A stretch of 24,931 nt of DNA. It comes from a virus. Taxonomy: Duplodnaviria > Caudoviricetes. The stretch covers positions 1-24,931 of IMG/VR virus record IMGVR_UViG_3300042475_001758. The stretch is one strand, 5' to 3'. Position 1 is the stretch's first letter; every line of letters starts with the position of its first letter. The notes under the pieces were generated by a model. The model was given only the letters and a program-made list of their open reading frames with translations, had not been told where the DNA came from and searched no databases. Made by a program: the position numbers and the translations under genes. Shown here in pieces: positions 3,077 through 8,530 of this stretch.

Positions 3077-3168
3077 TGGTAGAAGTGCTGAGTTTCGATC
3101 TCAGTCAAGAACAGTCATCTACTGCTAAAGGGATTATAAGGCCCTCCCGCGTCCCAACGCCCACTTCC
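3077..3168 (-). tRNA. Non-canonical tRNA-like gene, anticodon UAU (putative tRNA-Ile2(UAU)), long variable arm
   Basis: GGAAGTG/CACTTCT acceptor + A + CCA; D arm GCGT-TGGG-ACGC; anticodon loop CT-TAT-AA; V arm AGCAGT/ACTGTT; T arm CTGAG-ATCGAAA-CTCAG; 8 nt downstream of tRNA-Leu. Confidence 0.75.
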
Positions 3169-3176
3169 ACAGTTAT

Positions 3177-3253
3177 TGGTAGGGGTAGTCGGATTCGAAC
3201 CGACACTACACAGATTTTAAGTCTGTTGTCTCTACCTGTTGGACTATACCCCC
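3177..3253 (-). tRNA. tRNA-Leu(UAA), short variable loop
   Basis: GGGGGTA/TACCCCT acceptor + ACCA; anticodon arm ACAGA-CTTAAAA-TCTGT; T arm GTCGG-TTCGAAT-CCGAC; 77 nt. Confidence 0.93.
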
Positions 3254-3450: not shown

Positions 3451-3526
3451 TGGCGACCCCGGCAGGACTCGAACCTGCAACTTACTGCTTAGAAGGCAGT
3501 TGTTCCATCCATTGAACTACGGGGCC
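3451..3526 (-). tRNA. tRNA-Arg(UCU)
   Basis: GGCCCCG/CGGGGTC acceptor + GCCA; anticodon arm ACTGC-CTTCTAA-GCAGT; T arm GCAGG-TTCGAGT-CCTGC; 76 nt. Confidence 0.95.
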
Positions 3527-3885
3527 ATATAGAATTGAGCGTACGTATGAACTGCATGACAATTAGCACATAGTACTCTACATTTCCGAATCTCGGATTT
3601 CACTCGAAGAATGTTATACGTTTGCATTCTTGAGAGTGCTCTTTCTTTTTCTTTAGGGTCTAGATGATCTAATTGAAGGGCAGCAAAATGCTCTTTGTAA
3701 CCACAGATCTCACAACCTTTTCGAAGCTTATAACGTTTGACAAGCGTAGTAATATACTGACGCCTTTTCTTTTGTTGTTTATTAGCACAATCTTTACATT
3801 GTGACATTAAGCCTAAGCTTCTTTTCTTTTGTTTATAAAATTGATTGAGATCTTTAGTCTCGTTACAAGTAGTGCATTCCTTCAA
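3517..3885 (-). CDS. HNH endonuclease with N-terminal Cys4 Zn-ribbon
   Basis: CTTC...CKDC then CEICG...LDHLDP...CRVLCANCHAVH (HNH signature); TTG start with AAGGA SD. Confidence 0.85.
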   Translation of the reverse strand: MKECTTCNETKDLNQFYKQKKRSLGLMSQCKDCANKQQKKRRQYITTLVKRYKLRKGCEICGYKEHFAALQLDHLDPKEKERALSRMQTYNILRVKSEIRKCRVLCANCHAVHTYAQFYMAP

Positions 3886-5593: not shown

Positions 5594-5800
5594 TTAGAAG
5601 GGAATCAGTAGAGACTCCACATACTCCATGTGATTTTGACTCATTTCAACTAAGTCTTCATCAGTTAACTCCTTCCAAGTTAAGTTATCGAGAGAGCGTT
5701 CGATGTGTTTCCAGTCTCTACATCGATAGTACCAAACTGTTCCGTCAAACTCTGTATAGAAGTCTAACGGGTGATAAGTGCAGTCTTCACACATAGTCAA
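5594..5800 (-). CDS. Hypothetical protein (68 aa)
   Basis: ORF tiling; start uncertain (TTG 5800 or ATG 5794). Confidence 0.65.
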   Translation of the reverse strand: MTMCEDCTYHPLDFYTEFDGTVWYYRCRDWKHIERSLDNLTWKELTDEDLVEMSQNHMEYVESLLIPF

Positions 5801-6203
5801 TAGCTACTCCTGCTTCACGAAGCAAGTTACGAGCTTCTAAGAAGTTACCATACCAAGAGCTTTCCTTTTCAATTTCAGGAACCACAACTCTCTTAATTCC
5901 TCTCTGTATTGCTAAACCTGCACAAGTGCAACACAAGAAGCTAGTACAGTACAAAGTAGCTCCGTAGCAGTCACTAGAACGCAAAAGAGCATGAGACTCT
6001 GCATGTATTACGATTAGGTTCTTATACTCTCTGTTTGCCCAACGTTCATCGGTGTTAGCGATACCTCTGGGAAACTGATTAAACCCTCTAGTGAGAACTC
6101 TACCGTTTCTTTCAACTACACAACCTACTTTCTTGTTAGGGTCTAGTGACCAAGAAGCCTGTTCTTTTGCCAGGCCAAAGTAGAACCGATCTTCATCATT
6201 CAT
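5787..6203 (-). CDS. dCMP deaminase-like Zn-dependent deaminase
   Basis: S.DP..KVGCV, GFNQFPRG, HAE, LYCTSFLCCTCA, IQRGIKRVV motifs typical of dCMP deaminase/ComEB. Confidence 0.87.
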   Translation of the reverse strand: MNDEDRFYFGLAKEQASWSLDPNKKVGCVVERNGRVLTRGFNQFPRGIANTDERWANREYKNLIVIHAESHALLRSSDCYGATLYCTSFLCCTCAGLAIQRGIKRVVVPEIEKESSWYGNFLEARNLLREAGVAIDYV

Positions 6204-7861: not shown

Positions 7862-8160
7862 AGACCTAGTTCCTTCTTTAGTTTTTCATATTGGTTAAGT
7901 TTGTAATTTAACTGACTCTGCTCCGCTTTCTTCTTGCGTAGAGCACACTCTTCTGCTGTTTCCAGTCGATAAAAGACCCAGTTATGATTACAAGCTCTTT
8001 CATCATAAGGGTCGTCAAAGTCTAAACTATAGTAAACACCATCACAACCTTCAGTCTTCTTTGCTTCTACGTCGATACGAGAACAGTAGAGACTTAACTC
8101 ACTAGCTGACATAGACTCAGGAGTAAAGCTTACTCGTTTAAGTTCGATTTTACTCGACAT
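7858..8160 (-). CDS. Hypothetical protein (100 aa)
   Basis: Likely start ATG 8160 (MSSKIE), overlapping the deaminase stop. Confidence 0.7.
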   Translation of the reverse strand: MSSKIELKRVSFTPESMSASELSLYCSRIDVEAKKTEGCDGVYYSLDFDDPYDERACNHNWVFYRLETAEECALRKKKAEQSQLNYKLNQYEKLKKELGL

Positions 8161-8530
8161 TCCATCCATCCTTTGTTGTGTAGTAAACAGTAGGTATAAA
8201 AAAGGCTTCAATCGCCTTCTGACAACCTACACAGGGTTTAGAGTTACTCAACGAACCATCCTTACAAACTCTTGCTACGTACAGTGTAGAGTGCTTTAAA
8301 ACAGTTGTACCATAGCGACGTATAGCACGAGTTATACAGTCGATTTCAGCATGCAACTCTACTGCTTCAGGATGCTTACAATACCGTTTCATCATTGGAT
8401 GAGTTTTGTATTGGTTAACTCCTGTTGCTAACAATCGGCCTTTATAGTACAACGCAGCTGCATGCTTCGATCGATAGACAGGTGGTGTTGCTATTGCTAG
8501 CGCTACAGTCTTTATTTTTTCTTTTCCCAC
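8150..8530 (-). CDS. Second cytidine/dCMP-deaminase-superfamily protein
   Basis: HAEIDCI and SKPCVGC Zn-binding motifs; KHAAAL..KGRLLATGVN N-terminus; LYVAR. Confidence 0.82.
   Translation of the reverse strand: MGKEKIKTVALAIATPPVYRSKHAAALYYKGRLLATGVNQYKTHPMMKRYCKHPEAVELHAEIDCITRAIRRYGTTVLKHSTLYVARVCKDGSLSNSKPCVGCQKAIEAFFIPTVYYTTKDGWNVE

What the first reader, a model, noticed from the sequence alone, without database searches (positions are those of the whole stretch)
3077..3168. Non-canonical 92-nt tRNA with UAU anticodon, long variable arm, 4-nt D-loop and AUCGAAA T-loop
Seen (minus): GGAAGTG G GCGT-TGGG-ACGC G GGAGGG C CTTATAA T CCCTTT AGCAGT-AGATG-ACTGTT CTTGA CTGAG-ATCGAAA-CTCAG CACTTCT A CCA. 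Oddities: one nt (G, not U8) between acceptor and D arm, 4-nt D-loop, extended anticodon stem with a C-U mismatch, 6-bp V arm, A54-type T-loop. Known: most bacteria read AUA with TilS-modified tRNA-Ile(CAU); UAU anticodons are rare, tRNA-Ile is normally class I, and AUCGAAA T-loops typify eukaryotic initiator tRNA. Inference: a TilS-independent AUA decoder, an AUA-recoding tRNA charged by Leu/SerRS (long V arm, A73), or a decoy for host anticodon nucleases. Standard scanners may miss it.
Basis: partly seen in the sequence, partly recalled or inferred. Interest (0 to 1): 0.8.

Follow-up and report, generated by a model that had tools for sequence, protein, structure and literature searches.

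The report
Phage tRNA with two anticodon arms
This phage gene is a conserved, oddly built tRNA with two anticodon-like arms: one likely reads the isoleucine codon AUA, while the other displays the normal isoleucine anticodon GAU and is predicted to swing into place so that the host enzyme loads isoleucine onto it.

Summary
The 92-nt gene is real and conserved. I found 80 distinct homologues in phage/metagenome contigs, all with UAU, and compensatory changes in all five stems. ARAGORN and Rfam miss this copy. The AUCGAAA T loop is only a subfamily trait (37/80). AUA is not recoded: it aligns like the other Ile codons.

GAU sits centred in a 7-nt loop, 11-12 nt before the T stem as in class I tRNA-Ile(GAU), above the IleRS identity pair C29-G41. 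A GAU-blind scan found this in 75 of 80 long-armed phage tRNA(UAU), against 1 of 61 Leu/Ser/Tyr controls. One 3-nt strand can pair into either arm, with covariation (0/500 shuffles).

Best reading (0.6, untested): the GAU arm swaps in for charging by a host IleRS that disfavours U34, and the UAU arm decodes AUA without TilS. I found no paper describing this. The scan noted the GAU-tipped class before on other DNA (e1-1035274, e1-1068258, e1-5752543); I saw the rewired short-D core and the strand-swap register in none of the summaries shown. Cultured Vibrio and Synechococcus phages carry relatives, so it is directly testable.

The parts
3077..3168 (-). Two-anticodon-arm tRNA gene, 92 nt, encoded CCA (gene position p = window 3169-p)
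3162..3168 (-). Acceptor stem 5' strand (7 bp, G1.U72), pairs with 3081-3087
   Evidence: all 7 pairs change on both sides among homologues
3149..3161 (-). One-nt connector G8 plus 4-bp D stem with UGGG loop (UGG/UGGN in homologues)
   Evidence: G8 80/80; 2 of 4 pairs covary
3127..3147 (-). First (decoding) anticodon arm, 7 layers incl. C.U at 31:39; anticodon UAU at 3136-3138
   Evidence: UAU 80/80, U33 and A37 80/80
3145..3147 (-). Swap strand (gene 22-24): can pair with 3127-3129 (conformer A, UAU arm on D stem) or 3108-3110 (conformer B, GAU arm on D stem)
   Evidence: 22:61 paired 80/80 and 22:42 77/80; covariation vs 111
3110..3126 (-). Second anticodon-like arm (the 'V arm'): 7-nt loop 3115-3121 with GAU at 3117-3119; C45-G57 (3124:3112) in the place of IleRS identity pair C29-G41
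   Evidence: GAU 77/80, GAC 3/80; C-G 79/80
3105..3109 (-). 5-nt linker CUNGA; becomes the class I-like variable region in conformer B; position 62 covaries with position 21
   Evidence: mutual information 0.58, among the top non-helical pairs
3088..3104 (-). T arm, 5 bp, loop AUCGAAA (subfamily trait)
3077..3087 (-). Acceptor 3' strand, discriminator A73 (3080), CCA
   Evidence: A73 80/80, CCA 79/80
3177..3253 (-). Neighbour tRNA-Leu(UAA), 77 nt, 8 nt upstream; probable co-transcript
3451..3526 (-). Neighbour tRNA-Arg(UCU)

Best explanation
The gene encodes a conserved phage tRNA with two anticodon-like arms; it likely inserts isoleucine at AUA codons, and it is predicted to be charged by swapping its GAU arm into the anticodon position for the host isoleucyl-tRNA synthetase while the UAU arm is the one that would read the message. 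SHOWN: covarying five-stem fold; invariant UAU/U33/A37/A73; a GAU-centred 7-nt loop at the class I distance from the T stem, over a C-G pair in the place of C29-G41; a 3-nt strand able to pair into either arm; AUA means Ile in carrier phages. INFERRED: (1) origin by duplication or insertion of an anticodon arm in a tRNA-Ile(GAU) gene; (2) in conformer B the GAU arm stacks on the D stem, the RNA looks like class I tRNA-Ile(GAU) with the UAU hairpin looped out, and IleRS charges it; (3) after a 2-3 nt branch migration (conformer A) it looks like a class II tRNA and decodes AUA; (4) A33' in place of U33 keeps the GAU loop from decoding; (5) the phage thereby gains an AUA reader that needs neither TilS lysidine nor an IleRS that accepts U34.
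For: Fold. Anticodon invariance in blind searches: 28 of 28 true hits among 42 loci, 54 of 54 complete hits among 55, 93 of 93 among 119. GAU-blind scan that excluded this family: of 116 distinct hits, 80 are true long-armed tRNA(UAU); 75 of these have a GAU-centred hairpin, all 75 at 11-12 nt from the T stem. Class II Leu/Ser/Tyr controls have GAU there in 1 of 61. That is the distance in 17 of 17 ordinary phage tRNA-Ile(GAU). C29'-G41' occurs in 67/75 GAU arms but C29-G41 in only 15/75 UAU arms; C29-G41 is an E. coli IleRS determinant (PMC9976931 section 11). Reverse scan (GAU hairpin fixed, first anticodon free): 95 of 97 long tRNAs have UAU. Swap register: in 15 short-D lineages the B pairs are 93% paired with 7 two-sided changes and covariation 0.74, 0/500 shuffles; the competing A pairs show 1 change and 0.47, 23/500. 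In canonical-D members a full 5-bp composite GAU stem forms in 49/75 against a shuffled mean of 27 and maximum of 39. Vibrio phage Thalassa's 93-nt tRNA(UAU) lies next to its tRNA-Ile(GAU) and shares its D-arm sequence and the start of its T arm; in conformer B it has five Watson-Crick pairs and a U44-G45-G46-U47-C48 class I variable region. Need for the trick: E. coli IleRS (Trp905) prefers LAU over UAU 360-fold (PMC3575796 Table 1). AUA = Ile in carriers. Both loops lie 12 base layers from the D loop in the window's core, matching the 7-layer core plus 5-bp stem (PMC4394434 passage; layer count is my inference).
Against: There are no expression, charging or structure data. Secondary-structure energies put B 5.0-6.4 kcal/mol above A in the 80 members (window 6.2) and a median 5.4 above A in canonical-D types; B needs tertiary contacts or enzyme binding. 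The swap is not universal: 26 of 75 canonical-D members lack a full composite stem, the L002/L509 type has a self-contained GAU arm without swap pairs, and 12 short-D members have A.C at 26:44'. Position 37' is mostly G or U (window G; A in 28/75 and 6/119), whereas t6A37 is a strong determinant for bacterial-type IleRS. 5 of 202 second loops are GAC, a Val anticodon. Only 9 of 17 ordinary phage tRNA-Ile(GAU) have C29-G41. AUA use is not higher in carriers (window 9.8% of Ile codons; other carriers 10-21%; related loci without it 4-23%). The host's IleRS is unknown: of 4 alphaproteobacterial enzymes checked, 1 had the Trp and 3 had no alignable Zn domain. The 15-sequence alignment was hand-picked from clusters and covers 3 pairs, and relatedness inflates such scores.
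Confidence: 0.6

Rival explanations
1. It is an Ile tRNA for AUA whose GAU hairpin helps without any strand swap, for example as a fixed structural motif, an extra IleRS contact, or a guard against U34 modification and AUG misreading. IleRS reads the UAU loop directly.
For: Conformer A is the predicted ground state. The swap pairs are missing in some lineages. IleRS with Arg at the Trp905 site, and B. subtilis, accept UAU (PMC3575796 discussion; PMC3919564 abstract).
Against: It does not explain why the triplet is GAU, why it sits at the class I distance in 75/75, why C29-G41 is in the second arm rather than the first, or why the B pairs covary.
Confidence: 0.2
2. It is a non-decoding RNA: a decoy or inhibitor that binds host IleRS, TilS or an Ile-anticodon nuclease, and presents both Ile anticodons as bait.
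For: Six allo-tRNA(UAU) amber variants were inactive in E. coli (PMC5389517). There is no AUA enrichment. 3 of 3 alphaproteobacterial genomes that carry it also have tilS, and 27 of 59 arrays also carry a CAU tRNA.
Against: It keeps a 7/5 acceptor branch, encoded CCA (79/80), D-loop GG, U33 and A37, and sits in arrays with working tRNAs (49 of 59; most often Leu-UAA 31 and Arg-UCU 28). The allo-tRNA amber test changed the anticodon of a different fold.
Confidence: 0.12
3. It is a missense adaptor charged by LeuRS or SerRS through its long arm, like nematode nev-tRNA(UAU), so AUA is read as Leu or Ser. For the GAC variants, ValRS could make it Val.
For: A73 plus a long arm fits Leu identity (PMC9976931 passages). 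nev-tRNA-Ile(UAU) is leucylated in vitro (PMC4300185 abstract).
Against: AUA sites align like Ile codons in carriers and non-carriers alike. G73 (Ser) is absent in 80/80. The D loop lacks the A15 and A20a positions named for LeuRS (passage; sequence). Low-level ambiguity is not excluded.
Confidence: 0.06

Closest known systems
Class I tRNA-Ile(UAU) of Mycoplasma mobile and the B. subtilis tilS suppressor (PMC3575796, PMC3919564)
   Same: UAU anticodon, A37, A73; reads AUA without lysidine
   Different: Those are ordinary short-arm tRNAs that rely on an IleRS accepting U34 (Arg865 in M. mobile). This RNA has a second GAU arm, a 1-nt connector, a 3-4 nt D loop and a 7-layer stem.
allo-tRNA(UAU) (Mukai et al., PMC5389517)
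   Same: Same CUUAUAA loop (179 supplement hits), long arm, D tetraloop, missing 9-10, mobile context, 'five-stem junction' remark
   Different: allo-tRNAs are 8/4 or 9/3 with a long D stem and mostly G73/U73. This RNA is 7/5 with a 4-bp D stem and A73. None of this family's T-loop or GAU-loop motifs occurs in that supplement (0 hits).
Nematode nev-tRNA-Ile(UAU) (PMC4300185; PMC3333845 seen as listing only)
   Same: UAU anticodon on a long-V-arm body
   Different: nev-tRNAs are eukaryotic, Leu-type and leucylated in vitro. Here the arm is tipped with GAU and AUA stays Ile.
tRNA-Pyl / mt-tRNA-Ser(UCN) core (recalled; touched on in the PMC5389517 supplement text)
   Same: One nucleotide between acceptor and D stem, small D loop, lengthened anticodon stem
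   Different: Those have short variable loops and their own synthetase rules; no second anticodon arm.
Cyanophage and Vibrio phage 'tRNA-Ile(TAT)' annotations (PMC3152331; GenBank MG649967)
   Same: Some are relatives: Thalassa and henriette 12B8 (93 nt, annotated tRNA-Ile), S-SRM01, S-SKS1 and S-CRM01 (unannotated) carry both loops
   Different: The annotations and the passages I saw in that paper note only the anticodon, not the second arm.

Membership tests
allo-tRNA (8/4 or 9/3) | 12-bp acceptor branch split 8/4 or 9/3 | tested here: not met
   7/5; acceptor 7 of 7 pairs and T stem 3 of 5 pairs covary; G8 cannot extend the stem
allo-tRNA (8/4 or 9/3) | tRNA-Sec-like long D stem with tetraloop | tested here: not met
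   4-bp D stem, loop 3-4 nt
allo-tRNA (8/4 or 9/3) | G73 or U73 discriminator in most members | tested here: not met
   A73 in 80/80
class I tRNA-Ile(UAU) | UAU anticodon with U33, A37, A73 | tested here: met
   80/80
class I tRNA-Ile(UAU) | short (4-5 nt) variable loop and canonical D arm | tested here: not met
   17-nt arm plus 5-nt linker; 1-nt connector
class I tRNA-Ile(UAU) | charged with Ile by IleRS | not testable with these tools
   indirect only: AUA aligns as Ile
class II tRNA (Leu/Ser/Tyr) or nev-tRNA | long variable arm | tested here: met
   6-bp arm, 3 of 6 pairs covary
class II tRNA (Leu/Ser/Tyr) or nev-tRNA | codon read as Leu/Ser | tested here: not met
   AUA: L 0.15, S 0.01, against Leu codons L 0.55-0.66 and Ser codons S 0.38-0.43
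eukaryotic-type initiator tRNA | A54/A60 T loop as a family trait, CAU anticodon, A1-U72 | tested here: not met
   AUCGAAA 37/80; UAU 80/80; A1-U72 14/80; initiator features recalled
GAU-tipped long-arm phage tRNA(UAU) class (this scan's earlier notes; no paper found) | GAU centred in a 7-nt second loop 11-12 nt before the T stem over a C-G pair | tested here: met
   window: 12 nt, C45-G57; family GAU 77/80

The most novel reading that the evidence does not exclude
A natural tRNA that splits identity and decoding between two different anticodon arms and switches between them by strand exchange: a GAU arm for the synthetase and a UAU arm for the ribosome. It would be used by on the order of a thousand phage contigs to read AUA without TilS.
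Probability: 0.55. Interest if true: 0.95.

Novelty: new variant of a known kind. Interest (0 to 1): 0.85.

Why it matters
In anticodon-reading synthetase systems, the same three bases normally set both which amino acid is loaded and which codon is read. A tRNA that uncouples them with a second, swappable arm would be a new principle of tRNA identity. It would explain tRNA(UAU) genes in phages and bacteria whose IleRS is expected to reject U34, a puzzle raised in PMC3575796 and PMC3152331. It would also give phages an AUA reader independent of TilS, and suggest a design for reassigning codons. The class is common (about 2,000 stored stretches matched the scan pattern, roughly two-thirds real in the sample) and is carried by cultured phages. 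Half of this family escapes ARAGORN (41 of 80).

Tried and rejected
(1) blastn of the window gene and of three homologues against cultured phages gave no full-length match; a weak hit led to S-SRM01.
(2) The GTDB pattern scan gave 47 hits, all chance. That pattern fixed the AUCGAAA loop, so it does not show absence from cells: a looser pattern found 3 real genes among 23 matches in 401 genomes of Erythrobacter's class.
(3) One search was mis-spaced by one base and gave 3 chance hits; it was redone.
(4) One search missed the 91-nt forms; redone.
(5) The canonical-D energies were invalid (B equal to A) and were redone.
(6) The anticodon caller under-called UAU; the recount is.
(7) The first AUA tally was asymmetric; it was redone with the same conclusion.
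(8) Sequencing runs: no RNA holder listed. The one run (probably DNA) held a 175-nt contig covering 3059-3169 with 2 differences and other flanks; I do not use it as evidence.
(9) The promoter/terminator scan was at chance level for promoters.
(10) E. coli genomes: no real match to the Thalassa middle region.
(11) Alternative anticodon registers (AUA/Tyr, UUA/ochre) were rejected because the stems would mispair (sequence).
(12) A kissing interaction between the two loops, or pairing of GAU with the T loop, was considered and rejected: neither explains invariant G34' or the UUC T loops.
(13) Codon-bias compensation as the sole driver is not supported.
(14) Sequence look-ups in earlier scan findings were blank.

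Full report
OBSERVATION. The window is a whole 24.9-kb phage contig. It encodes a terminase, a portal 44% identical to Naomiviridae DSS3 phages, tail and head genes. The element at 3077-3168 (minus) is as described and folds as the stated cloverleaf (z -0.93, so a single sequence proves little). ARAGORN finds only tRNA-Leu(UAA) 3177-3253 and tRNA-Arg(UCU) 3451-3526, and Rfam at E<=1 also misses it. It starts 8 nt after the Leu gene's CCA.

FAMILY. A pattern scan of IMG/VR gave 25 loci: 23 homologues, one divergent (L002) and one chance. Anticodon-blind scans gave 28 true of 42 and 54 complete plus 1 truncated of 55 in metagenomes. All true hits have UAU. In total there are 80 distinct sequences (about 30 effective). 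On 37 of them, 96.6% of cells pair and 19 of 29 pairs change on both sides; 0/500 shuffles reach this and slid controls give 38-52%. G8, the D-loop GG, U33, A37 and A73 are invariant. 31:39 is unpaired in 52/80, and AUCGAAA occurs in 37/80. ARAGORN of 80. Of 59 members with at least 4 kb of flank, 49 lie with other tRNAs, most often Leu(UAA) 31, Arg(UCU) 28 and CAU 27. tRNA-His with A73 (11/14) and two-piece tmRNAs suggest alphaproteobacterial hosts (the taxonomic link rests on PMC5389517 and recall).

WHAT AUA MEANS. Majority residues aligned to AUA sites in carrier phages are I 0.39, V 0.19, L 0.15, M 0.04, S 0.01 (809 sites). This matches AUC and related loci without the gene, and differs from Leu or Ser codons. 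So there is no recoding. AUA use is not raised in carriers.

THE SECOND ARM. The 'V arm' loop can be read as seven nucleotides, Y-R-G-A-U-N-R, with GAU at the centre (77/80; GAC 3/80) and a Y:R closing pair that includes C.A ten times, as at 32:38. I tested this with a scan that did not ask for GAU and excluded this family. It returned 120 loci from 5 of 64 parts (about 2,000 estimated). Of 116 distinct hits, 80 are true long-armed tRNA(UAU) and 36 were dropped as non-cloverleaf. 75 of the 80 have a GAU-centred hairpin, all 11 or 12 nt before the T stem, in 44 clusters at 80% identity; 1 of 61 class II Leu/Ser/Tyr controls has GAU there. The same distance holds in 17 of 17 ordinary phage tRNA-Ile(GAU). 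C29'-G41' is in 67/75 second arms but only 15/75 UAU arms, and the window family's C45-G57 (79/80) is that pair. E. coli IleRS determinants include the anticodon, A73, C4-G69 and C29-G41 (PMC9976931 section 11). Position 33' is A in 71/75. In the reverse scan (GAU hairpin fixed), 118 distinct hits split into 95 long tRNAs with UAU, 2 long others, 3 of class I length and 18 chance. Over all loci then held, 202 distinct two-loop tRNAs were found: 197 GAU and 5 GAC; 119 short-D and 83 canonical-D.

THE SWAP. In the window's core, gene positions 22-24 can pair with 40-42 (A: UAU arm on the D stem) or with 59-61 (B: GAU arm on the D stem). Either loop is then 12 layers from the D loop (my count; 7-layer core plus 5-bp stem in PMC4394434), and 21 covaries with 62. 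Across 15 short-D sequences that I chose from different clusters, the B pairs show 7 two-sided changes and covariation 0.74 (0/500), and the A pairs 1 change and 0.47 (23/500). In canonical-D members a full 5-bp composite GAU stem forms in 49/75, against a shuffled mean of 27 and maximum of 39. Vibrio phage Thalassa shows it most clearly: its 93-nt tRNA(UAU) adjoins tRNA-Ile(GAU), shares its D-arm sequence and the start of its T arm, and in B becomes a class I tRNA with five Watson-Crick pairs. Against this: B is 5.0-6.4 kcal/mol less stable in nearest-neighbour terms, some lineages lack the swap, and 37' is seldom A although t6A37 matters to bacterial IleRS.

MECHANISM. E. coli IleRS prefers LAU to UAU 360-fold because of Trp905 (PMC3575796), so a plain phage tRNA(UAU) would be charged poorly in such hosts. 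I infer that the GAU arm is the synthetase handle (conformer B) and the UAU arm the decoder (conformer A), so that AUA is read as Ile without TilS (0.6). The rivals are a fixed helper hairpin with direct UAU charging (0.2), a non-decoding decoy (0.12) and a Leu/Ser/Val missense adaptor (0.06). The window host's IleRS is unknown: of 4 alphaproteobacterial enzymes checked, 1 had the Trp and 3 had no alignable domain. Three of 401 sampled genomes of Erythrobacter's class carry a two-arm gene, two with the short-D core, and all three have tilS.

CULTURED OR NAMED CARRIERS. Vibrio phages Thalassa and henriette 12B8 were checked by sequence; 43 Vibrio phage records matched a middle-region query. Cyanophages S-SRM01 and S-SKS1 have the window-type short-D core and are unannotated, and S-CRM01 also carries one. 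Plasmids of Xanthomonas and Alteromonas carry it too. Lactobacillus phage 3-521 has GAC in the second loop.

LITERATURE. Ten searches of PMC-CC and bioRxiv listed no paper describing a GAU-bearing second arm; most subscription journals are not covered. What I saw of each paper: PMC5389517, parts 1-4 of 5 of the text, supplement part 1 and supplement term searches (figures not visible); PMC3575796, abstract, kinetics section and discussion; PMC3919564 and PMC4300185, abstracts; PMC9976931, passages and section 11; PMC7609411, PMC13092985, PMC4394434 and PMC3152331, passages; PMC3333845, listing only. tRNA-Pyl and initiator features are recalled. It is not an allo-tRNA (7/5, A73, short D stem), not a nev-tRNA and not a class I tRNA-Ile(UAU).

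EARLIER SCAN NOTES. After I had recorded the idea and tested it, a look-up showed that the scan had noted the GAU-tipped class on other DNA. These notes agree but are not independent evidence. The short summaries shown do not mention this rewired core or the swap register.

VERDICT. Real, conserved and structurally new; most likely an AUA-reading Ile tRNA with a second, synthetase-facing anticodon arm. The mechanism is untested but directly testable.

Noticed in passing
window 3177-3253 (-): tRNA-Leu(UAA) is 77 nt with no long variable arm; at least 28 of 43 distinct Leu(UAA) genes in carrier arrays are 76-78 nt.
   Followed up: no
L205 1449-1543: A 95-nt tRNA with the same rewired core but anticodon CAU and a GAU hairpin one nucleotide shorter; possibly a lysidine-dependent or decaying form.
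   Followed up: partly
L052, L091, L309, L383; Lactobacillus phage 3-521 (L496 797-887): The second loop carries GAC (a Val anticodon) instead of GAU; could mean Val at AUA, or relaxed selection in hosts whose IleRS accepts UAU.
   Followed up: partly
L517, L546; Thalassa L494 3099-3174: Class I tRNA(GAU) genes with A33 or C33 instead of U33.
   Followed up: no
L016/L070 724-814 and 1473-1564 (L016 coordinates): One contig carries both architectures of two-arm tRNA(UAU), canonical-D and short-D.
   Followed up: partly
L618 (Synechococcus phage S-CRM01) 204-350: An unannotated full two-arm tRNA(UAU) is followed by what looks like the 3' half (GAU arm, T arm) of a second one.
   Followed up: no
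L004/L049 and L081: Two-piece tmRNA genes in carrier phages' tRNA arrays; tRNA-His mostly A73.
   Followed up: no
window 5787-6203 and 8150-8530 (-): Two dCMP-deaminase-like genes in a phage whose portal is closest to Naomiviridae (recalled: uracil-containing DNA).
   Followed up: no
window 3517-3885 (-): An HNH endonuclease gene whose end overlaps the first bases of tRNA-Arg(UCU).
   Followed up: no
L020/L077 and L049: ARAGORN calls of a CUA-anticodon ('Pyl') and a UCA-anticodon ('SeC') tRNA in carrier arrays; possible suppressors.
   Followed up: no
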